From Candidatus Vogelbacteria bacterium (GTDB taxonomy: Bacteria > Patescibacteriota > Minisyncoccia > Phycocordibacterales > XYD1-FULL-46-19), in contig CAIPHT010000006.1 in NCBI GenBank assembly GCA_903864935.1, positions 37,129 to 101,128 on the forward strand: a stretch of 64,000 bases of DNA. The letters are read 5' to 3'. Of this stretch, positions 5,649 through 35,130 are shown in pieces (positions within the stretch are counted from its first letter, which is position 1; each line of letters starts with the position of its first letter). The notes under the pieces are model-generated. The model was not told the origin of the DNA. It worked only from the letters and a program-made list of their open reading frames with translations, and searched no databases. The translations under genes and the position numbers were made by a program.

Positions 5649-5984
5649 ATGTTTTTTAAAAGAAAAGCTGTTTCTGTACAACTTAAAGAGGGTGACGAGA
5701 TCCGGGTTCATAACAAGGGGATGTCTTGGGCCGTCTACTTTTATCGCTTTAACCGTCGCATAGGCGTTTGGGAGGAAATACGTTGTAGGAGCTCATTCCT
5801 TCGAATGGAAGTACCTCTCGGGGGGAGTAAGGAGGACCAAATCGCTGCAGCGAAAGGGGTGGTCGAGACCATCGCCGGATTCGCTGGTTATACCCTCTCC
5901 ACAGGGCCTAGCGAAAGGGTTGGGTGTGAAAGCGATGATCCTATTGTTCATGGTTGGGTAGGGGAACCAGTTTACAGGGTCTAA
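5649..5984 (+). CDS. Hypothetical small protein.
   Basis: 111 aa. Strong SD (gaaaggaggtga) 8 nt upstream. Followed by a rho-independent terminator at 5994-6030. Confidence 0.4.
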   Translation: MFFKRKAVSVQLKEGDEIRVHNKGMSWAVYFYRFNRRIGVWEEIRCRSSFLRMEVPLGGSKEDQIAAAKGVVETIAGFAGYTLSTGPSERVGCESDDPIVHGWVGEPVYRV

Positions 5985-6071: not shown

Positions 6072-6077
6072 TTGGAA

Positions 6078-9056
6078 ATGGAAAAAAAATCTAAATACGA
6101 TCATAAAAAGATCGAGGCCAAGTGGCAAAAGAAATGGGTAAAAGATAAAACTTACGAGACCAAGGACCCTTCGACAGGCTCAGGGCGAGCGGGAAGTAAG
6201 AAGCCCAAGGCCTATGTTCTCGACATGTTCCCATACCCCTCTGGTGACGGACTTCACGTTGGGCATCCTAAGGGCTATATTGCCACTGATATTTACTCCC
6301 GTTTCAAGCGCATGAACGGTTTTAACGTCTTGCACCCGATGGGTTGGGACGCTTTTGGTTTGCCAGCCGAGAATTATGCCATTAAGAACAAGATTAATCC
6401 TGAGGTCGCCGTTAAGAAAAATGTTAAACGCTTTAGAGAACAAATAGACAAAATTGGTTTTGATTATGATTGGTCGCATGAGATTAATACCACTGACCCC
6501 AAGTACTATAAATGGACACAATGGATTTTCTTACAATTATATAAAAAGGGGCTCGCTCATGAGTCTTGGGAGCCAATTAATTGGTGCCCATCGTGCAAGA
6601 CAGGTCTCGCCAATGAAGATCTTGAGAATGGTAAATGTGAGCGCTGTGGCTCTGAAGTAGAGAAGAAGCCCATGCGTCAATGGATTCTTAAGATTACCGA
6701 TTATGCCGAACGTTTGCTCTCCGACTTAGATGCTCTTAATTGGCCCGAATCCGTCAAGGAATCTCAACGCAATTGGATTGGCAAAAGTGAAGGTTCCGAA
6801 ATTTCCTTCCCGATCAAAACAAAATATAAGTATGTCTTACTCCACGGCTGGCGCAGTAGCTCTAAGACCTGCTTCTTCCCTTGGCTTAAGAAAGAGCTCG
6901 AGGCCGAGGGTCATGAGGTTATCGCTCTTGATATGCCTCACCCACTGCTACCTGATGTCGTAGAGCAAGCGGATTATGTTTTGTCGAAGGTCAAATTCGA
7001 TGAGAACACAATTCTTTTGGGCCACTCACTTGGTTCTGTTGTCTCTTATCGCATCTTAGAAAAACTTAAGACACCAATTCATAAATTAATTTTGGTCGCC
7101 GGTTTAATTGAGCCTAAATTCCGCGACCATGACCGCTTGCTTGCCAAGTATTTAATGAGTTGGAAATTTGATTTTGAGAAAATTAAGAAAACTGTTGGCG
7201 AAATTGTCATTCTTGAAGACAATAATGACGTTATCATCCCCGATGGCGAATCGAATGTGATAAAACAGGCCCTTGGTGGTTATAATTACCGCCTAGAGGC
7301 CGAGAAAGCCCATTTCTGCGGGACGGTTGAACCTTTGGTCTTAGAGCACAGCCTCGACAAGATCAAGGTCTTCACCACTCGGGCCGACACCTTGTTTGGT
7401 GCGACTTATTTAGTCGTGGCGCCTGAACATCCGATAATTGAGAGGTTGTCTCCTCAGATTGATAATATCAAAGAAGTTAGAAAATATGTCGCCAAGGCCA
7501 GCAAGCGAACAGAAATTGAGCGAACAGCTGAAGGCAAAGACAAAACAGGAGTTAAACTTGAAGGTCTAACAGCCATTAATCCAGTTAATAACAAAGAAAT
7601 TCCCATTTGGGTCGCCGATTATGTTCTCCCTGATTACGGCACAGGAGCAATTATGGCTGTTCCGGCTCACGACGAACGCGACTATCAGTTTGCGAAGAAA
7701 TTTAATCTGCCGGTTATCCAAGTTATTGGTGAGGACTTGCCAACCAGACTAGAAAATTGGGGGCAAGCCTATGCTGGTTATGGTAAATTAATTAATTCTG
7801 GTAATTTCACCGGGATGGAGAGTACCAAGGCGAAGGGAGCAATTACCAAACTCGCTCGGGGGCAAATGGTCACCAAATACAAACTTCGTGACTGGGTCTT
7901 CTCGCGTCAACGTTATTGGGGCGAACCGATCCCAATTATTCATTGCCCTAAGTGTGGTGTTGTGCCCGTCCCCGAGAAAGAATTACCCGTCGTTCTACCT
8001 AAAGTGAAGAGCTATGAGCCAACTGGCACAGGGGAGTCACCGCTGGCCGCTATCTCTAAGTGGGTCAATGTGAAGTGTCCGATTTGTGGCGAGAAGGCCA
8101 AACGTGAGACCAATACCATGCCTCAGTGGGCCGGGTCATCTTGGTATCATCTGCGTTATATTGATCCGAAGAATAACAAGGCTCTCGTTGATAAAAAGAA
8201 AGAGAAATATTGGTCACCGGTAGACGTGTATGTTGGTGGCACCGAGCACGCCACTCGTCACTTAATCTACGCTCGCTTCTGGCACAAATTCCTCTTCGAT
8301 ATCGGAGCGGTGAGCCAAACCGAACCTTATGCTCGACTTAAAAATCAGGGGATGATCTTGGGTGCCGACAACCGCAAAATGAGTAAGCGTTGGGGTAATG
8401 TTATTAACCCCGATGATATTGTGCGCGATTTTGGCGCTGACACTCTCCGCGTTTATGAGATGTTTATGGGACCCTTCGAGCAAGGCGCGTCATGGAGTAC
8501 TGATAACTTAATGGGCGCGAGACGCTTTGTGGAGAAAGTTTGGAGATTAAGTCAACGACTTCGCACAGCTGGTTCATCAAGTAAAGCCCTTGAGGTCTTA
8601 CTCCACAAAACTATCAAGCAAGTCACTTCAGATATCGATAATTTCAACTACAACACGGCCATCTCGGCGCTCATGATATTAACGAATGAGTGGGAAAAAG
8701 TTGGGGGCGTAACTAAAGAAGATTGGCTAATTTTTCTCAAATTATTCGCACCTTTTGCTCCGCACTTAGCCGAAGAGTTGTGGTCTAATCCGCCAGCTGG
8801 CGGAGGACAAAAAGGTTCTATCCACCTCGCCAAGTGGCCAGAATTTGATGAGAAGAAGCTCGTGAGCGACACCGTCACCCTCGTCATCCAAGTTAACGGC
8901 AAAACCAGAGAATCAATTATTGTAGACAGGGACACCTCACAAGAAGAGGCCGTAAAAATGGCTCTAAATAACGATATTATTAAAAAATGGGTGGGTGAAG
9001 TCGTACCCAAGAAGATAATTTATGTACCCAATCGTTTGCTCAATCTGGTCGTCTAA
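6078..9056 (+). CDS. leuS: Leucyl-tRNA synthetase carrying an inserted YdeN/RBBP9-type serine-hydrolase (alpha/beta-hydrolase) domain, nt about 6822-7346.
   Basis: HIGH motif HVGHPKGY, Zn motif CPSCK...CERCG, CP1 hallmarks VFTTRADT and AVPAHDERD, KMSKS as KMSKRW, and a C-terminal anticodon-binding domain. Between NWIGKSEGSEISFPI and KVFTTRADT there are about 175 residues, where E. coli has about 10. These align along their length with B. subtilis YdeN (LHGW.SS..FFPWLKK.L...G..V.ALDMP.P..P; GHSLG nucleophile elbow). The ORF track starts at the TTG at 6072; the ATG at 6078 is the more likely start. Confidence 0.9.
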   Translation: MEKKSKYDHKKIEAKWQKKWVKDKTYETKDPSTGSGRAGSKKPKAYVLDMFPYPSGDGLHVGHPKGYIATDIYSRFKRMNGFNVLHPMGWDAFGLPAENYAIKNKINPEVAVKKNVKRFREQIDKIGFDYDWSHEINTTDPKYYKWTQWIFLQLYKKGLAHESWEPINWCPSCKTGLANEDLENGKCERCGSEVEKKPMRQWILKITDYAERLLSDLDALNWPESVKESQRNWIGKSEGSEISFPIKTKYKYVLLHGWRSSSKTCFFPWLKKELEAEGHEVIALDMPHPLLPDVVEQADYVLSKVKFDENTILLGHSLGSVVSYRILEKLKTPIHKLILVAGLIEPKFRDHDRLLAKYLMSWKFDFEKIKKTVGEIVILEDNNDVIIPDGESNVIKQALGGYNYRLEAEKAHFCGTVEPLVLEHSLDKIKVFTTRADTLFGATYLVVAPEHPIIERLSPQIDNIKEVRKYVAKASKRTEIERTAEGKDKTGVKLEGLTAINPVNNKEIPIWVADYVLPDYGTGAIMAVPAHDERDYQFAKKFNLPVIQVIGEDLPTRLENWGQAYAGYGKLINSGNFTGMESTKAKGAITKLARGQMVTKYKLRDWVFSRQRYWGEPIPIIHCPKCGVVPVPEKELPVVLPKVKSYEPTGTGESPLAAISKWVNVKCPICGEKAKRETNTMPQWAGSSWYHLRYIDPKNNKALVDKKKEKYWSPVDVYVGGTEHATRHLIYARFWHKFLFDIGAVSQTEPYARLKNQGMILGADNRKMSKRWGNVINPDDIVRDFGADTLRVYEMFMGPFEQGASWSTDNLMGARRFVEKVWRLSQRLRTAGSSSKALEVLLHKTIKQVTSDIDNFNYNTAISALMILTNEWEKVGGVTKEDWLIFLKLFAPFAPHLAEELWSNPPAGGGQKGSIHLAKWPEFDEKKLVSDTVTLVIQVNGKTRESIIVDRDTSQEEAVKMALNNDIIKKWVGEVVPKKIIYVPNRLLNLVV

Positions 9057-14650: not shown

Positions 14651-16480
14651 ATGACATCTGAAGAAATCCGGCAAAAGTTCTTAGACTTTTTCGAACAAAG
14701 GGGGCACAAGATAGTGCCTTCGGCTTCGCTTATCCCTAGTACTTACGGCGACGAGGGGACTCTCTTCACCACGGCGGGGATGCAACCCATGATTCCTTAC
14801 TTACTAGGCAAAGCCCACCCCGAAGGTGTAAGAATTGCCGACGTGCAGAAATGTCTGCGCACAATTGACATCGATGACGTGGGTGACAACAGGCATAATA
14901 CTTTTTTCGAAATGTTGGGTAATTGGTCACTTGGTGATTATTTTAAAGCTGAGTCCATCCCTTGGAGTTTCGATTTTCTCACTAACAAAGAATATGGCTT
15001 GGGTCTCGACCCGGCTAGATTTTACGTTACCGTCTTTAAAGGTCAAGAGGCCACCGCCGAAGGCGGGGCAAGCATCCCGCGCGACGAAGAATCAATCAAA
15101 ATCTGGCAAGAAGTTTTTGCTAAATATAATATTTCTAATGAAGTGGCGGGCGAAGACGGAGTTGTTAAAGAAGGAGTAAGAATAATCCCACTTGGTGTTG
15201 ATGACAACTTCTGGATTGCCGGTAATTCTGGCCCCTGCGGTGGAGATACTGAGATTTTTTATGATGTCTACCCGAACGACAAAGTCGGGCGGGCCAACCC
15301 AGAAGGTAATTTTAATGACCTCGTAGACTCCTTCAGATTAATTGAGGTGTGGAATAACGTCTTCATGGAGTACAACAAGACCACAGAGGGCAAATATGAG
15401 CCTCTAGCGGCCAAAAATGTAGACACCGGCATGGGCTTAGAACGCACAACGGCCGTCGTTAATGGCAAGGACAATATTTTTGAGACAGATCTCTTTGCCC
15501 CTATTCTCAGCGAGATTAAACAACAGGTGGCCAATTTTGATGTTAAAGCTTCACGTATTGTTGCCGACCATGTGCGTACCGCTGTCTTTATGATTGCCGA
15601 CGGGGTGACTCCATCAAACACTGACCGAGGCTATATCTTAAGACGAATTATCCGTCGCGCGGTGCGTTATGCTGACAGTATGCAGGCTGACAATGAGGTC
15701 TTAAGCAAAGTGGCCTATATTGTGATTGAAAAATATAAAAAAGTTTATCCCGAACTTGAGCAAAACCGTGAGCAAATTTTTACTGAGCTAAATAAAGAGG
15801 AAGAAAAATTTAGAAAGACACTCGAGCAAGGCCTTAAAGAATTCGAGCGAGGTCAGGACCCCTTCGATCTCTACCAAACTTTTGGCTTCCCGATTGAATT
15901 AACCGAGGAATTGGCTCAAGAAAGAGGGATAACAATAGACAGAAAGAAGTTTGATGAGCAAATGATTGAGCATCAAGCTATTTCTAAGGCTGGCTCTGAG
16001 CAGAAGTTCAAAGGCGGGCTTGCCGAGCACTCCGAGCAGACGATTAAATATCATACCGCTACCCACCTCTTACACTCCGCCTTGCGACAAGTCTTGGGGA
16101 AAGAAGTTGGACAGAAGGGGAGCAACATCACCGACGAGCGTCTGCGCTTCGACTTCGCTTGGCCAAATAAATTGACCGATGCACAAAAGATTGAGGTAGA
16201 AAAAATTGTGAACGATAGCATCTCCGCCAATTTGCCCGTCTGTCGCATTGAGCTCTCTAAAGAAGAGGCCGAGAAAACCGGCGCCCTGCACTTCTTCGGT
16301 GAGAAATATGGCGACACTGTCTCGGTTTATTATATTGGTGATGGTATCGACGATGCCGTATCTAAAGAATTCTGCGGTGGCCCTCATGTCAAGAATACCG
16401 GCGCCCTCGGCCACTTCAAAATCACTAAGGAAGAGGCCTCCTCGGCCGGAGTCAGACGCATTAAAGCCATTTTGGAATAA
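14651..16480 (+). CDS. alaS: Alanyl-tRNA synthetase, compact 609-aa form that lacks the C-terminal C-Ala domain.
   Basis: Class-II AlaRS N-terminal motifs (FLDFFEQRGH, GNWSLGDYFK), the editing-domain zinc site HTATHLLH, and CGGPHV. Confidence 0.85.
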   Translation: MTSEEIRQKFLDFFEQRGHKIVPSASLIPSTYGDEGTLFTTAGMQPMIPYLLGKAHPEGVRIADVQKCLRTIDIDDVGDNRHNTFFEMLGNWSLGDYFKAESIPWSFDFLTNKEYGLGLDPARFYVTVFKGQEATAEGGASIPRDEESIKIWQEVFAKYNISNEVAGEDGVVKEGVRIIPLGVDDNFWIAGNSGPCGGDTEIFYDVYPNDKVGRANPEGNFNDLVDSFRLIEVWNNVFMEYNKTTEGKYEPLAAKNVDTGMGLERTTAVVNGKDNIFETDLFAPILSEIKQQVANFDVKASRIVADHVRTAVFMIADGVTPSNTDRGYILRRIIRRAVRYADSMQADNEVLSKVAYIVIEKYKKVYPELEQNREQIFTELNKEEEKFRKTLEQGLKEFERGQDPFDLYQTFGFPIELTEELAQERGITIDRKKFDEQMIEHQAISKAGSEQKFKGGLAEHSEQTIKYHTATHLLHSALRQVLGKEVGQKGSNITDERLRFDFAWPNKLTDAQKIEVEKIVNDSISANLPVCRIELSKEEAEKTGALHFFGEKYGDTVSVYYIGDGIDDAVSKEFCGGPHVKNTGALGHFKITKEEASSAGVRRIKAILE

Positions 16481-18857: not shown

Positions 18858-21320
18858 GTGATGTTCGCCTCTAAGAAAAAAGTGGGGAGTAATGTTATTG
18901 GTGTTATCGATATTGGTAGCGCGCGGGTTAGCGGTGCCTTAATGACTGACTGGCCCAAGATAACAGGGGAGACAAGCGAGAGTGTCAATTGGCAAGAATT
19001 GCCCGATTGGGACAGATTCCAAGCGGGAATTGAGCAATCACTCGAGCGCGTTCTTAAGAAATTAGCCAAGGGCAAACACGCTAAACCAACGGAGTTATTT
19101 GTTTTCCTCTCGGCCCCCTTTTTTATCGGTAGCACCAAGATTGTACGTACCAAAGATAAAGCCCCTTTTGAGATTACTCCACCTTATCTCGCTGGCTTGG
19201 TAAAAAAAGATATTCTAAGCTTTGATCGTGGACAGAAGGGCGATCTCGTTCGACTCGAGAACGAGATTATGCAAATTAAGCTCAACGGCTATTCAGTTAC
19301 CGAACCGCTCGGCCAGATGGCCACCGAGATAGAACTCTCTCACTGGCAAAGCGAGAGTCACATTTCCTTAATTGAGAAATTCAAAGAGATTATTAAGGGA
19401 GAATTTCCCGAAGCACGAATAACTTTCCATTCCTTCGCCTATGCCTCTTACGCCGTTTTTAGCGAATTATTGCCCGAGAAGGATCTGATTATCATCGACA
19501 CCGGCAACGAATTGACCGATGTCATCGTTATTAAAGATGGTTATCTTGCCGAACACTTATCCTTCCCTTTGGGTAAGAATTATCTTATTCGTTCTGTCAC
19601 CAAGTCTCTCCAGACTGTGCCCGTTGACACTGAGGGTATTCTTAATCGTTACGCGAGCAGTAAGACAAACAATCAACTAAAGAATCGTCTCGAACCAGCT
19701 CTCGTTAAGCCCGCCGAAGAATGGTTGGGAAATCTTGGCGAATCTCTAACCCGCGCCCTAAAGACAACAATACTGCCCGAAGATATTTATATTTTTGGTG
19801 ACGAACCAAGCGACAAAGTCTTCGCTGATTTTATAAAAAAGGCCGATTTTTCATCCATTTCTATCGGTCACAAACCTTTTAGAGTCTATTATTCAGAGAA
19901 ACCGCTCGGTCAAGCACTTGAGCACTTGTCAGGCAAAATTTCTCCACCCGTTGGCAATAATTTCCTTTTGGCAGAGGCCCTCTTTTGTGCTATGCTGAAG
20001 GGTAGCAAATTGAATCTTTGGCCATTTAATCAATTAATAACAACTATGCATGATATAACTAAAAACAAAAAAAGTTTGCGTGATATCTTCCCCGAGAACA
20101 AAGTCGGGACGGGGACTATTAATAATTCTATGAATGAAGAGCCTAATTTCAAAACTTCGAGCTACACCCCTCAGAGACCAGTACGGTCTAGCACCGGCTT
20201 GAGCCTAAAGATCAAAATCTTTGCCGGAGTTCTCGTCTTAGCCATCATTATCGCCGGCGGTTTTGCCCTCTCATCACAATTTGCCAAGATTACCGTTAAG
20301 GTTACTCCCAAACAAGGTCGCCTGATGGTCAGCAATACCTATGAGGCCAACAAGTTGGCCGGTGAAGGGCTCAAGTTTTCTCTGGCCTCCAATATTTCGG
20401 TTGAAGATAGTGCCAACGTTCCAGCCAGCGGCGTAGTTGCCGTTAAGAACAAGACTCGAGGCAAAATTGTCATCTCTAATACAAGCAACACTAGTCAGAA
20501 CCTAATCGCTACCACCCGCTTCCAAACTCAAACTGGTTTAATCTATCGGATTGAGAAAAATATCAGCGTACCAGTCGGTCAGTCAGAGGTCACCGTTGTC
20601 GCTGATCAGCCCGGCCCAGATTACAATCTAGCCAGTGCCGATTTTACTATCCCTGGCTTTAAGGGGACGCCCAAATTCACTCAATTCTCCGCCAAGACAA
20701 AGGAGGCTCTCACCGGTGGGGCAATTGGCAATCAACCAAAAGTCTCGGACGAAGATCTTGCCAAGGCAACCGCTGGCCTCAAAGCCAAACTTCTGGCTGC
20801 CGCCGTGGCCAAACTTAAGCCCCAAATTCCCGACGGTTTTATCCTTTTTGACGGAGCAGTTATTGCCAATTTCACCCCAGAGATTAGTAGCGACCCCAGC
20901 AAGCCTGGCGAAGCGATCCTTAAGCTTAAGGCGGATGCCACCGGTATCCTCTTCAACGAGAGAGAGCTGGCAGGATTTCTAGCCAAGCAACAAGTTCCCG
21001 ATTACAAGGACGAACCGGTTGATGTCACCAATTGGTCAAGTTTCAAATTTAGCTTGATAAATAACGATAATTCTGACCTAAGCAGTGTCGACAAAGTCAG
21101 TTTCAAACTTGAGGGGACCGGCCAATTAGTCTGGGCCTTCGACCCCGCAATGCTTAAACAGAAGCTCCAATCTGCCGGAGCAAACAATTATAAGACGGTC
21201 TTCACCCAAGATTTTCCTATGATCCAAGTGGCCAACATTGTCTTCACCCCACCCTGGGTGAGGAGTATCCCAAGTGACCCCAACCGGATCTCGGTCGAGA
21301 CAAGCATTAGCAAGCCTTGA
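18858..21320 (+). CDS. Large membrane-anchored protein with an N-terminal actin-like ATPase domain (FtsA/PilM-like), one TM helix and a long extracytoplasmic C-terminal region.
   Basis: Phosphate-1-like motif IGVIDIGSARVSGAL. TM helix IFAGVLVLAIIIAGGFALS near residue 450. 820 aa. TATAAT lies 4 nt before the ATG. Confidence 0.45.
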   Translation: MMFASKKKVGSNVIGVIDIGSARVSGALMTDWPKITGETSESVNWQELPDWDRFQAGIEQSLERVLKKLAKGKHAKPTELFVFLSAPFFIGSTKIVRTKDKAPFEITPPYLAGLVKKDILSFDRGQKGDLVRLENEIMQIKLNGYSVTEPLGQMATEIELSHWQSESHISLIEKFKEIIKGEFPEARITFHSFAYASYAVFSELLPEKDLIIIDTGNELTDVIVIKDGYLAEHLSFPLGKNYLIRSVTKSLQTVPVDTEGILNRYASSKTNNQLKNRLEPALVKPAEEWLGNLGESLTRALKTTILPEDIYIFGDEPSDKVFADFIKKADFSSISIGHKPFRVYYSEKPLGQALEHLSGKISPPVGNNFLLAEALFCAMLKGSKLNLWPFNQLITTMHDITKNKKSLRDIFPENKVGTGTINNSMNEEPNFKTSSYTPQRPVRSSTGLSLKIKIFAGVLVLAIIIAGGFALSSQFAKITVKVTPKQGRLMVSNTYEANKLAGEGLKFSLASNISVEDSANVPASGVVAVKNKTRGKIVISNTSNTSQNLIATTRFQTQTGLIYRIEKNISVPVGQSEVTVVADQPGPDYNLASADFTIPGFKGTPKFTQFSAKTKEALTGGAIGNQPKVSDEDLAKATAGLKAKLLAAAVAKLKPQIPDGFILFDGAVIANFTPEISSDPSKPGEAILKLKADATGILFNERELAGFLAKQQVPDYKDEPVDVTNWSSFKFSLINNDNSDLSSVDKVSFKLEGTGQLVWAFDPAMLKQKLQSAGANNYKTVFTQDFPMIQVANIVFTPPWVRSIPSDPNRISVETSISKP

Positions 21321-33795: not shown

Positions 33796-35130
33796 ATGGA
33801 AAGCTGGATCAAAACTAGGAACAAAATTATTGGTTGGAATTATCGAAATATTCTCAAACCAATTCTCTTCAAATTCGATCCTGAAGATATCCACGACTTA
33901 TTTATTAAAGTAGGGAATCTCCTTGGCCAAACATCCGCCACTCGATATTTAACAAGAGTTCTTTTTGATTATGAGAACCCAGTGCTTGAACAAGAAATTT
34001 TGGGCATCAAATTTAAAAATCCAGTTGGCCTCTCGGCTGGCTTCGACAAGAATGCAAGACTAACAAAAATCTTACCAGCTGTTGGCTTTGGTTTTGCTGA
34101 AGCGGGTTCAGTCACTGGCCGACCCTGCAAGGGCAATGAGGGGCGACATTTATGGCGCTTGCCTAAGTCTAAGAGTTTGATTGTTTATTATGGTTTGACG
34201 AATGATGGGGCAGAGGCCATCGCCAGGCGATTGTTAGAAGTCCAACTTCAAGTGAGCCCGAAGTTGGACTTCGAACAAGAAGCCAAGGGTCCGGAAGTTG
34301 GACTTCGGGCTCACTTGAAGTCCAACTTCCTACACAAGTCCAACTTCGTTCTGGGCATCAGTCTCGCCAAAACAAACGACCAAAAAACCATCACGACCGA
34401 AGCGGGGACTGCTGATTATATTAAAGCCTATGAAGCCTTCCTCAAGACCGACGTTGGCGACTACTTCACCATCAACATCAGTTGCCCCAACACCTTTGGT
34501 GGCGAACCTTTTGTTGAACCAGAACGTCTTGATTTGTTACTCTCCGCTTTTGCTAAAATAAGAGACGAAGAATCTGCCCGAGGACTACCCTCGGTCAAAG
34601 CGAAAGAAGTCCAACTTCAAGTGAGCCCGAAGTTGGACTTCGTGAGCGTCAACCGTCCACTTTTTATAAAACTCCCACCAGACCTAAGTGAAGAAAAACT
34701 AGACGCCATTATTGAACTGGTCAAGAAATATAAAATCAATGGCTTCGTCTCGACAAATCTCACCAAGGACCGAAACAATCCACTAATTAAAGATAAAATA
34801 AAGGATCCTTTGCCCACAGACAAAGGGGGATTGTCAGGTAAGATTGTTGAGGAGCTCGCAACCAAGCAAATTGAATATATTTATAAAAAAATAAAAGATC
34901 TCCCTCAGACCGAGAGACCTATCATCATTGGTTGCGGAGGCATCTTCACAGCCCAAGACGCCTACAACAAAATCAAAGCTGGCGCCTCACTCCTCCAACT
35001 CATCACCGGGATGATTTTCGAAGGCCCTCAAGTCATTAGCGAGATCAATCAAGGCCTGGTCACCCTGCTCCAAAAAGATGGGTATAAAAATATAAGTGAG
35101 GCGGTAGGGAAGTCTACTTGCCAACCATAA
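33796..35130 (+). CDS. pyrD: Dihydroorotate dehydrogenase (class 2-like), carrying three in-frame palindromic-element insertions that add about 100 aa.
   Basis: GFDKNA, NISCPNT, GGLSG, IIGCGGI...DA..KI.AGASLLQL.TG. It is 444 aa, against about 340-360 for typical DHODH. The extra peptides EVQLQVSPKLDF (twice) and PEVGLRAHLKSNF are encoded by the repeats at 34237-34273, 34292-34330 and 34606-34642. Confidence 0.8.
   Translation: MESWIKTRNKIIGWNYRNILKPILFKFDPEDIHDLFIKVGNLLGQTSATRYLTRVLFDYENPVLEQEILGIKFKNPVGLSAGFDKNARLTKILPAVGFGFAEAGSVTGRPCKGNEGRHLWRLPKSKSLIVYYGLTNDGAEAIARRLLEVQLQVSPKLDFEQEAKGPEVGLRAHLKSNFLHKSNFVLGISLAKTNDQKTITTEAGTADYIKAYEAFLKTDVGDYFTINISCPNTFGGEPFVEPERLDLLLSAFAKIRDEESARGLPSVKAKEVQLQVSPKLDFVSVNRPLFIKLPPDLSEEKLDAIIELVKKYKINGFVSTNLTKDRNNPLIKDKIKDPLPTDKGGLSGKIVEELATKQIEYIYKKIKDLPQTERPIIIGCGGIFTAQDAYNKIKAGASLLQLITGMIFEGPQVISEINQGLVTLLQKDGYKNISEAVGKSTCQP
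34237..34273 (+). repeat. 37-bp palindromic element, short form (GAAGTCCAACTTC-aagtgagcccg-AAGTTGGACTTC-g), in frame in pyrD.
   Basis: Perfect 13-bp inverted arms. Translated as EVQLQVSPKLDF. Confidence 0.75.
34292..34348 (+). repeat. Inverse-orientation copy of the 37-bp element plus an adjacent half-element, in frame in pyrD.
   Basis: cggaagttggacttcgggctcacttgaagtccaacttcc, then aagtccaacttcg. Translated as PEVGLRAHLKSNF..HKSNF. Confidence 0.7.
34606..34642 (+). repeat. 37-bp palindromic element, second direct copy, in frame in pyrD.
   Basis: Identical to 34237-34273. Confidence 0.75.

What the first reader, a model, noticed from the sequence alone, without database searches (positions are those of the whole stretch)
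6822..7346. LeuS carries an inserted YdeN/RBBP9-type serine-hydrolase domain immediately before the CP1 editing domain
About 175 residues sit between the catalytic-core segment NWIGKSEGSEISFPI and the CP1 entry strand KVFTTRADT, where E. coli LeuS has about 10. They align along their whole length with the B. subtilis YdeN / RBBP9 alpha/beta-hydrolase family: YVLLHGWRSSSKTCFFPWLKKELEAEGHEVIALDMPHP against FIVHGYQASSTNHWFPWLKKRLLADGVQADILNMPNP, the nucleophile elbow GHSLG, and a distal His. CP1 itself (TTRADT ... AVPAHDERD) is retained. A serine esterase grafted next to the post-transfer editing domain of an aminoacyl-tRNA synthetase is not an architecture I know of. The fold has esterase chemistry, so it could hydrolyse aminoacyl esters, that is, act as an auxiliary or replacement proofreading or trans-editing activity. 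The insertion is in frame and the motifs are intact, which argues against a pseudogene.
Basis: partly seen in the sequence, partly recalled or inferred. Interest (0 to 1): 0.85.

Follow-up and report, generated by a model that had tools for sequence, protein, structure and literature searches.

The report
Serine hydrolase nested in leucyl-tRNA synthetase
The leucyl-tRNA synthetase gene in this window really does carry a complete, apparently active RBBP9/YdeN-type serine hydrolase inside its editing domain; hundreds of Patescibacteria (CPR) species share this layout and I found no paper describing it, but comparison across genomes suggests the hydrolase is a self-sufficient passenger enzyme rather than a new proofreading site.

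Summary
leuS (6078-9056, 992 aa) is a full bacterial LeuRS (TIGR00396, 998 bits). A ~180-residue PF06821 Ser_hydrolase domain (6816-7367) is nested in the first beta-hairpin of CP1, three residues before the TTRADT editing strand. Its model (pLDDT 96.5) matches YdeN 1UXO and RBBP9 7OEX at TM 0.82-0.83.

It is not a mis-assembly. The exact protein lies on two contigs. 110 of the 120 nearest LeuRS clusters carry the same insert, with Ser and His invariant and a triad acid present in all 110. At least 564 GTDB species genomes, nearly all Patescibacteria, encode a relative. Non-synonymous divergence of the insert equals that of the host.

The proposed auxiliary or replacement editing role is only partly supported. 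CP1 motifs are intact in 120/120, so it is not a replacement. Close syntenic relatives lack the insert cleanly. One relative has it as a separate gene. The same domain also sits at a second LeuRS site, in IleRS, ValRS, AlaRS, SecA, TsaD, Der and Adk, and most often stands alone. NUDIX, HAD and LMW-phosphatase domains nest in the same synthetases.

Best reading: an autonomous, active passenger hydrolase. An aminoacyl-ester proofreading role remains possible (~0.25), because RBBP9 acts on free alpha-aminoacyl groups.

The parts
6078..9056 (+). leuS, bacterial-type leucyl-tRNA synthetase, 992 aa plus stop (an alternative TTG start lies at 6072)
   Evidence: ORF. TIGR00396 scores 998.5 bits. The exact protein is on record on two contigs.
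6078..6782 (+). N-terminal half of the catalytic core, with HVGH (6255-6266) and the ZN1 knuckles CPSC...CERC (6585-6647)
   Evidence: Pfam tRNA-synt_1 at 17-238. Motif positions.
6783..6815 (+). first strand of the CP1 beta-hairpin (residues 236-246, SEGSEISFPI)
   Evidence: DSSP on the AF2 model: E236-246.
6816..7367 (+). nested RBBP9/YdeN-type lidless alpha/beta hydrolase (residues 247-430)
   Evidence: PF06821 above its gathering score. 1UXO E=6e-17. Model pLDDT 96.5, TM 0.83 to 1UXO and 0.82 to 7OEX.
6843..6848 (+). HG dipeptide (H256-G257); inferred to be the oxyanion-hole motif
   Evidence: H in 109/110 and G in 110/110 nested homologues. The functional role is inferred from alpha/beta-hydrolase knowledge.
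7020..7034 (+). nucleophile elbow GHSLG; Ser317 is at 7026-7028
   Evidence: Ser in 110/110. Aligns to the GHSSG motif (catalytic S75) of RBBP9.
7218..7229 (+). acidic triad candidates D381 (7218-7220) and D384 (7227-7229); D384 aligns with RBBP9 D138
   Evidence: D381 position is D in 105/110. D384 position is D or E in 107/110. At least one is present in 110/110.
7311..7313 (+). catalytic His412 (AHFCG)
   Evidence: His in 110/110. Aligns with the GHF motif (H165) of RBBP9.
7359..7391 (+). second hairpin strand and the threonine-rich editing motif TTRADT (7374-7391)
   Evidence: E428-433 in the model. TTRxDT in 120/120 homologues.
7368..7874 (+). remainder of the CP1 editing domain, including GTG (7638-7646) and HDERD (7668-7682)
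   Evidence: PF13603 at 1.3e-62. HDxRD in 120/120.
7941..8087 (+). ZN2 region (HCPKC...CPIC); unoccupied here, but this is the alternative insertion site for the same hydrolase in other LeuRS
   Evidence: Alignment of P0099/P0111/P0112. L029/L047/L055. P0294/P0307/P0326.
8376..8390 (+). KMSKR (KMSKS-type) loop
   Evidence: Read directly from the sequence.
8595..8942 (+). anticodon-binding domain
   Evidence: Pfam Anticodon_1 at 1.2e-20.

Best explanation
Shown: the window's LeuRS is a complete bacterial LeuRS with synthetic and CP1 editing motifs intact. A whole lidless alpha/beta hydrolase of the RBBP9/YdeN family (PF06821, COG3545) is grafted, through linkers of only about 2-4 residues, onto the tip of the first beta-hairpin of CP1. 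The chimeric gene is inherited and under purifying selection across a large Patescibacteria clade, and the Ser-His-acid triad is invariant.

Inferred: the domain is an active, self-sufficient small-substrate hydrolase, acting on soluble short-chain or alpha-aminoacyl esters or amides, as ML-005 and RBBP9 do. It rides on LeuRS as a passenger. Nesting in an essential, constitutively made protein gives it expression and retention in a tiny genome. It neither replaces nor is required for CP1 proofreading. Its substrate need not be leucine-specific or tRNA-bound.

The LeuRS hairpin is one of several permissive landing sites that CPR class-I synthetases offer to small house-keeping hydrolases (this one, NUDIX, HAD, LMW phosphatase).
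For: - Identity and fold.
- Reality and spread: the exact protein lies on two contigs. 110 of the 120 nearest LeuRS clusters have the hairpin-nested domain. At least 564 GTDB species genomes encode a relative, nearly all Patescibacteria.
- Constraint: Ser 110/110, His 110/110, acid 110/110. pN of the insert against L004 is 0.078, against 0.071-0.100 for the host segments, with synonymous sites saturated.
- Autonomy: 84 of the 150 best 50%-identity cluster representatives are stand-alone proteins of about 180 aa. The 16 stand-alone GTDB loci have no leuS within 4 kb. In L001 a 75%-identical copy is a separate ORF, and a tree without support values places it inside the window's nested clade.
- Dispensability for LeuRS: P0027 and P0033 are syntenic, share the same CP1 sequence and lack the insert cleanly.
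- Promiscuity: the same domain sits in the LeuRS ZN2 knuckle, in IleRS and ValRS, and in AlaRS, SecA, TsaD, Der, Adk, IMPase and a methyltransferase.
- Other hydrolases in the same hosts: NUDIX at three LeuRS sites, HAD, LMWPc.
- Family biochemistry: ML-005 is a short-chain esterase (PMC6119806). RBBP9 is an aminopeptidase (PMC8866121).
Against: - No activity, substrate or geometry was measured. Model coordinates and PAE were not available, so I could not tell whether the hydrolase pocket faces the CP1 pocket or the CCA path.
- Fusion hosts are strongly enriched for editing synthetases: LeuRS at two sites, IleRS at the homologous CP1 hairpin just before TTTPWT, ValRS and AlaRS. Most other hosts are also tRNA- or ribosome-linked. 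A purely indifferent passenger does not obviously predict this.
- The very short linkers and the constant insert length (NWIG-to-TTR distance of 180-219 residues in 109 of 120) imply a fixed orientation next to the editing strand.
- RBBP9's requirement for a free alpha-amine is exactly what an aminoacyl-ester deacylase would need.
Confidence: 0.55

Rival explanations
1. Accessory proofreading. The nested hydrolase deacylates mis-aminoacylated tRNA or hydrolyses non-cognate aminoacyl-adenylates or esters through an aminoacyl-Ser317 intermediate. This would give LeuRS (and IleRS, ValRS, AlaRS in related organisms) an extra editing site in cis or in trans, covering substrates that CP1 handles poorly.
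For: - RBBP9 removes single N-terminal amino acids, needs a free alpha-amine and forms an aminoacyl-enzyme.
- The domain sits three residues from the TTRADT editing strand on very short linkers.
- IleRS carries it at the homologous hairpin just before TTTPWT.
- About 5 of 12 distinct host types are editing synthetases.
- The triad is invariant.
Against: - CP1 motifs are intact in 120/120, so nothing needs compensating.
- The insert is cleanly lost in close relatives with identical CP1.
- The second LeuRS site (ZN2) and the ValRS and AlaRS sites are not next to the editing pocket.
- Fusions exist to SecA, Adk, IMPase and a methyltransferase, and stand-alone copies are the majority.
- The L001 'hydrolase gene + leuS' pairing is not conserved in that LeuRS lineage.
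- NUDIX, HAD and LMWPc domains occupy the same loops.
Confidence: 0.27
2. Selfish or neutral insertion. The domain spreads by recombination through the highly conserved flanks of essential genes and persists because imprecise deletion would be lethal, with no benefit to the cell.
For: - Presence/absence polymorphism with clean boundaries among close relatives.
- An intein-like host range of essential conserved genes.
- Mosaic LeuRS genes: L001 has window-like flanks (about 75-80% DNA identity) but a different CP1 type.
Against: - An invariant catalytic triad over 110 diverged copies and pN equal to that of the host point to selection on the enzyme activity itself.
- No nuclease or splicing motifs. 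The boundaries are ...FPI|KTKY and DKIK|VFTT, and Pfam reports only alpha/beta-hydrolase families.
- The domain is retained as an intact separate gene after excision in L001.
Confidence: 0.08
3. Non-catalytic module. The hydrolase fold serves as a structural, regulatory or binding surface on CP1 (for tRNA, ribosome or a partner) and no longer catalyses hydrolysis.
For: - Rigid short linkers and constant size.
- RBBP9 was first described as a binding protein (the title of PDB entry 2QS9).
Against: Ser, His, the acid and the HG motif are invariant or nearly so in 110 nested copies. Non-catalytic alpha/beta-hydrolase derivatives normally lose these residues.
Confidence: 0.05
4. Assembly chimera or frameshifted pseudogene.
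For: None was found. The only hint was that the closest stand-alone homologue lies next to leuS in another metagenome.
Against: - The exact protein lies on two contigs.
- More than 100 independent clusters from NCBI, JGI, ENA and Logan assemblies have the same junctions.
- The reading frame is continuous.
- The full-length model has pLDDT 88.6.
- Base composition is even across the junctions.
Confidence: 0.01

Closest known systems
B. subtilis YdeN (PDB 1UXO) and the metagenomic esterase ML-005 (COG3545 / PF06821)
   Same: Same family by profile and fold: E=6e-17, 30% identity, TM 0.83. About 180 aa, no lid, Ser-Asp-His triad, GHSxG elbow. ML-005 hydrolyses short-chain pNP esters.
   Different: Those are free-standing proteins. 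Here the domain is nested inside another enzyme. The physiological substrate of YdeN is also unknown.
Human RBBP9 (PDB 2QS9, 7OEX, 9FCR)
   Same: Same family and fold (E=3e-9, TM 0.82). The catalytic Ser, Asp and His align. RBBP9 acts on a free alpha-aminoacyl group through an acyl-Ser intermediate.
   Different: Only 23% identity. The loop that carries RBBP9's amine-anchoring Glu108/Tyr99 cannot be aligned reliably, so substrate specificity cannot be transferred.
Canonical bacterial LeuRS with a CP1 editing domain (E. coli 4AQ7/4ARC, T. thermophilus 2BTE)
   Same: All LeuRS modules and motifs are present: HVGH, ZN1, CP1 with TTRxDT/GTG/HDxRD, ZN2, KMSKR and the anticodon-binding domain. TM up to 0.85 normalised to the target.
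   Different: No solved LeuRS (760-876 residues) has anything in the CP1 hairpin loop. In E. coli that loop is about 6 residues (NDYDNT; sequence from memory, not checked here).
Synthetases that carry an extra enzyme domain, e.g. NCBIfam NF040702 'isoleucine--tRNA ligase, N-acetyltransferase domain-containing'
   Same: A precedent for a class-Ia synthetase hosting an unrelated catalytic domain. The family appears in the hit list.
   Different: A different domain (GNAT) and a different host. I did not examine its insertion site.
Dedicated aminoacyl-tRNA editing modules (CP1, INS/YbaK, AlaX, DTD)
   Different: None of them has an alpha/beta-hydrolase fold or a Ser-His-Asp triad (my own knowledge). 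No such family matched the insert.

Membership tests
PF06821 Ser_hydrolase (YdeN/RBBP9, COG3545) | Profile match above the curated gathering score | tested here: met
   34.6 bits in the whole protein and 39.1 bits for the insert alone, against a gathering score of 22.
PF06821 Ser_hydrolase (YdeN/RBBP9, COG3545) | Compact lidless alpha/beta-hydrolase fold of about 180 residues | tested here: met
   AF2 model pLDDT 96.5. Foldseek top hits are 1UXO (TM 0.83) and 7OEX (TM 0.82); lidded hydrolases score TMt of 0.54 or less.
PF06821 Ser_hydrolase (YdeN/RBBP9, COG3545) | Ser (GxSxG) - Asp - His triad present in sequence | tested here: met
   S317, D384 (and D381) and H412 align to RBBP9 S75, D138 and H165. 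They are conserved in 110/110 nested homologues.
PF06821 Ser_hydrolase (YdeN/RBBP9, COG3545) | Triad residues assembled in space | tested here: inconclusive
   The high-confidence model superposes on solved family members at 2.3-3.1 A rmsd. Coordinates were not returned, so inter-residue distances were not measured.
PF06821 Ser_hydrolase (YdeN/RBBP9, COG3545) | Hydrolytic activity | not testable with these tools
   Needs enzyme assays or activity-based probe labelling.
Bacterial LeuRS (TIGR00396 leuS_bact) | Equivalog HMM score above cutoff | tested here: met
   998.5 bits against 548.4, in two stretches split by the insert.
Bacterial LeuRS (TIGR00396 leuS_bact) | HIGH and KMSKS signature motifs; CP1 placed after ZN1, with the threonine-rich motif and the conserved Asp | tested here: met
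   HVGH at 60, CPSC/CERC at 170/187, TTRADT at 433, HDERD at 531, KMSKR at 767. PF13603 at 1.3e-62.
Aminoacyl-tRNA editing domains (CP1, INS/YbaK, AlaX, DTD) | Homology to a known editing fold | tested here: not met
   The insert matches only alpha/beta-hydrolase families in Pfam, NCBIfam and the PDB.
Aminoacyl-tRNA editing domains (CP1, INS/YbaK, AlaX, DTD) | Deacylation of mischarged tRNA | not testable with these tools
   Needs biochemical assays.
Inteins / self-splicing insertions | N-terminal Cys/Ser, C-terminal His-Asn followed by Cys/Ser/Thr, Hint fold | tested here: not met
   The boundaries read FPI|KTKY and DKIK|VFTT. There was no Hint or intein Pfam hit, and the fold is an alpha/beta hydrolase.

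The most novel reading that the evidence does not exclude
The nested alpha/beta hydrolase is a third catalytic site of class-Ia synthetases in CPR bacteria. It would be a serine-nucleophile aminoacyl-ester (or aminoacyl-adenylate) hydrolase recruited several times independently (LeuRS at two sites, IleRS, ValRS, AlaRS). It would proofread substrates that CP1 cannot clear, and it could also act in trans when encoded separately. This would be a new structural class of aminoacyl-tRNA editing domain.
Probability: 0.22. Interest if true: 0.9.

Novelty: new variant of a known kind. Interest (0 to 1): 0.62.

Why it matters
Synthetase domain architecture is thought to be well catalogued. A current survey database paper (AARS Online) mentions no hydrolase or NUDIX domains in these enzymes.

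Here the majority form of LeuRS in a large bacterial radiation carries a catalytically intact serine hydrolase inside its editing domain. Its relatives add NUDIX, HAD and LMW-phosphatase domains to LeuRS and IleRS, giving proteins of up to 1,700 residues.

If the hydrolase acts on aminoacyl esters, it is a new kind of editing site. If it is a passenger, it shows a systematic 'enzyme-inside-enzyme' strategy in ultra-small genomes and marks surface loops of LeuRS that tolerate 180-residue insertions, which is useful for protein engineering. Either reading can be tested directly with a recombinant protein and an S317A mutant.

Tried and rejected
- Mis-assembly or pseudogene: rejected.
- 'The hydrolase replaces a decayed CP1': rejected. 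TTRxDT and HDxRD are present in 120/120.
- 'Hydrolase gene upstream of leuS is a conserved operon that compensates a non-canonical CP1'. L001 suggested this. Three other LeuRS of that CP1 type have no such upstream gene, so I dropped it.
- Intein or mobile-element reading: no supporting motifs.
- Mapping RBBP9's amine-anchoring Glu108/Tyr99 onto the insert: the alignment of that loop is unreliable, and my --keeplength column mapping was off by one, so I drew no conclusion from it.
- dN/dS: synonymous sites are saturated (pS 0.73-0.88), so I used only pN compared with the host.
- Measuring the distance from Ser317 to the CP1 or synthetic site: structure prediction returns no coordinates or PAE.
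- Fold search against afdb50: that library is not installed.
- Rfam and tRNA scans around the gene found nothing relevant.
- Six literature searches for the architecture returned nothing pertinent. Absence from this library is not proof that it is unpublished.
- The NJ tree has no support values and long terminal branches. I used it only for the placement of P0001.
Full report
**1. What is in the sequence**

A single open reading frame runs from 6072 (TTG) or 6078 (ATG) to 9056 on the + strand. GC content is even across it. The 992-aa product from the ATG is on record, letter for letter, on two public contigs of 10.5 kb and 165 kb.

Pfam finds the class-I catalytic domain (17-238), Ser_hydrolase PF06821 (254-403), the LeuRS editing domain PF13603 (424-593) and the anticodon-binding domain. 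PF06821 scores 34.6 bits against a gathering score of 22, and 39.1 bits for the insert alone. NCBIfam's bacterial LeuRS equivalog scores 998.5 bits against a cutoff of 548.4, in two stretches split by the insert.

By sequence, the insert hits B. subtilis YdeN (1UXO, E=6e-17) and human RBBP9 (E=3e-9).

**2. Where exactly the insert sits**

The full-length AlphaFold model has mean pLDDT 88.6 and pTM 0.79, built from 63 sequences. It has strands 236-246 (SEGSEISFPI) and 428-433 (IKVFTT), with the whole hydrolase (251-425, block pLDDT 79-95) between them. The linkers are about 4 and 2 residues long.

Insert-less relatives have about 9 residues in that loop. So the domain is grafted on the tip of the first beta-hairpin of CP1, three residues before the threonine-rich editing strand TTRADT. 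It is inside CP1, not before it.

The insert modelled alone has pLDDT 96.5 and superposes on YdeN (TM 0.83) and on RBBP9 with bound phenylalanine (7OEX, TM 0.82). Lidded hydrolases score far lower. No solved LeuRS structure (760-876 residues) contains such a domain.

**3. It is real, inherited and constrained**

A search with the whole LeuRS found that 110 of the 120 nearest clusters (52-85% identity) carry the hydrolase in the same hairpin. These clusters come from NCBI, JGI, ENA and Logan and are named Paceibacterota, Parcubacteria, Vogelbacteria, Taylorbacteria, Woesebacteria or Patescibacteria.

A pattern scan of one genome per GTDB species found at least 564 genomes encoding a relative, nearly all Patescibacteria. 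Of the best 80 loci, about 49 have the domain nested in the LeuRS hairpin.

In the 110 nested copies the nucleophile Ser and the His are invariant, an acidic triad residue is present in all, and the HG motif is present in 109-110. Against the closest genome locus (L004), the non-synonymous difference of the insert (pN 0.078) equals that of the LeuRS segments (0.071-0.100), while synonymous sites are saturated. This points to an active enzyme under selection, not a decaying insertion or an artefact.

**4. Does it serve LeuRS editing?**

Several results argue that it does not need to.

- (a) The CP1 motifs TTRxDT and HDxRD are present in all 120 homologues, so nothing has been replaced.
- (b) Two close, syntenic relatives (P0027, P0033) have the same MacB/FtsX - leuS - sigma70/HARE-HTH - DUF8128 neighbourhood and a nearly identical CP1 sequence. 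They lack the insert cleanly and have no hydrolase gene within 4 kb.
- (c) In metagenome locus L001 a 75%-identical copy is a separate 185-aa gene just upstream of an 817-aa leuS. In a neighbour-joining tree without support values, it falls inside the window's nested clade, which suggests a secondary fission.
  - That LeuRS belongs to a large second CPR lineage whose CP1 has YNSVPQT, YDSIPQT or FSAHFEA instead of TTRxDT (103 of 107 hits).
  - Three other members of that lineage have no upstream hydrolase gene, so the pairing is not a conserved operon.
- (d) The same domain family occupies a different LeuRS site, inside the ZN2 knuckle (HCxxC|insert|GVxPVPE).
- (e) It is also nested in IleRS and ValRS, and nested in or fused to AlaRS, SecA, TsaD, the Der GTPase, adenylate kinase, an inositol monophosphatase and a methyltransferase. 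Of the 150 best 50%-identity cluster representatives, 84 are stand-alone proteins of about 180 aa.
- (f) NUDIX (three sites in LeuRS), HAD and LMW-phosphatase domains are nested in the same synthetases, producing LeuRS of up to 1,564 and IleRS of up to 1,701 residues.

**5. What keeps the editing idea alive**

- The only substrate-defined member of the family, RBBP9, removes single N-terminal amino acids, requires a free alpha-amine and forms an aminoacyl-Ser intermediate (PMC8866121). This is the chemistry an aminoacyl-ester deacylase would use.
- The YdeN homologue ML-005 is a short-chain esterase (PMC6119806).
- Among roughly a dozen distinct host types, five are the editing synthetases: LeuRS twice, IleRS, ValRS and AlaRS.
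- In IleRS the insertion is at the homologous CP1 hairpin, directly before TTTPWT.
- The rigid, short linkers fix the domain next to the editing strand.

These points can also be explained otherwise. Large class-Ia enzymes have insertion-tolerant loops, and translation genes dominate the conserved gene set of CPR genomes. They nonetheless justify a probability of about one quarter for the editing reading.

**6. Verdict on mechanism**

Shown: a complete, selected, catalytically equipped RBBP9/YdeN-type hydrolase is nested in the CP1 hairpin of a fully equipped LeuRS, and this form is common across Patescibacteria.

Inferred (confidence about 0.55): it is an autonomous small-substrate hydrolase that uses LeuRS as a carrier, one instance of a wider habit of nesting house-keeping hydrolases in essential synthetases.

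Rival (about 0.27): it is an extra aminoacyl-ester proofreading site.

Minor rivals: a selfish insertion (0.08), a non-catalytic module (0.05) and an artefact (0.01).

**7. Novelty**

The sequences have been public since the first CPR genomes. For example, a Woesebacteria GW2011 protein is named 'Leucyl-tRNA synthetase', and JGI names one 'leucyl-tRNA synthetase/predicted alpha/beta hydrolase family esterase'.

Six full-text searches and the AARS Online survey paper gave no description of the architecture. I class it as a new variant of a known kind: a synthetase with an accessory enzyme domain. NCBIfam's ileS_w_GNAT is a precedent.

**8. Limits**

- No coordinates or PAE were available, so the decisive geometric test could not be run.
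- Counts from the capped tools (best 80, 120 or 150 hits) are samples, not a census.
- The tree has no support values.
- The library I searched does not cover subscription journals.

Noticed in passing
L001:10607-13060; proteins P0274-P0380: A second large lineage of CPR LeuRS has a conserved non-canonical CP1 entry strand (xYNSVPQT, YDSIPQT or FSAHFEA) in place of the threonine-rich TTRxDT editing motif, while keeping HDxRD. This applies to 103 of 107 hits to the L001 LeuRS. The editing competence of this CP1 type is unknown. L001's gene looks mosaic: its flanks are about 75-80% identical in DNA to the window, but its CP1 is of the other type.
   Followed up: partly
proteins P0038, P0058, P0064, P0090, P0112, P0119, P0121; loci L035, L036: Related LeuRS and IleRS carry further nested enzymes. 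NUDIX occurs at up to three LeuRS sites (after the LLxDLD helix, in the CP1 hairpin, and about 20 residues after HDERD), with up to three NUDIX stretches in one protein. HAD_2 and LMW phosphotyrosine-phosphatase domains also occur, and there is a second Ser_hydrolase stretch in Saccharibacteria IleRS. These proteins reach 1,500-1,700 residues. P0111 also has an insert of about 130 aa after HDERD that I did not run through Pfam.
   Followed up: partly
loci L012, L014-L016, L021, L030, L071: MAGs labelled Pacearchaeota or Woesearchaeota (DPANN archaea) encode a bacterial-type LeuRS, 40-57% identical to the window's across aligned segments, with the same hairpin-nested hydrolase. This means either CPR-to-DPANN gene transfer or mislabelled bins.
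   Followed up: no
window 19186-19268 (+), inside ORF 18858-21320 (+): ARAGORN calls an 83-nt tRNA-Gln(ttg) with the anticodon at position 37. It lies inside an 820-aa ORF that has no Pfam hit, and the Rfam gathering scan of the whole window reports no tRNA. It is probably a false call, or the ORF is spurious.
   Followed up: partly
window 5649-5984 (+): A 111-aa ORF lies directly upstream of leuS in a stretch with raised GC (~0.49) and strong positive GC skew. It is called as a gene on the ENA contig but has no Pfam or Rfam match. Relatives have a 111-aa gene on the opposite strand at the same place (L084).
   Followed up: no
window 14651-16480 (+): The window's AlaRS is short (609 aa: catalytic domain plus SAD, no C-Ala domain) and carries no hydrolase. 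A related organism's AlaRS (P0217) has the same hydrolase family nested after its catalytic domain.
   Followed up: no
window 33796-35130 (+): In the dihydroorotate dehydrogenase, 361 residues span a 290-position Pfam profile. This suggests another internal insertion of about 70 residues.
   Followed up: no
protein P0033 (913 aa; close relative of the window LeuRS): This LeuRS lacks the hydrolase but has an insertion of about 100 residues of unknown nature after HDDRD, at the site where other LeuRS carry NUDIX.
   Followed up: no
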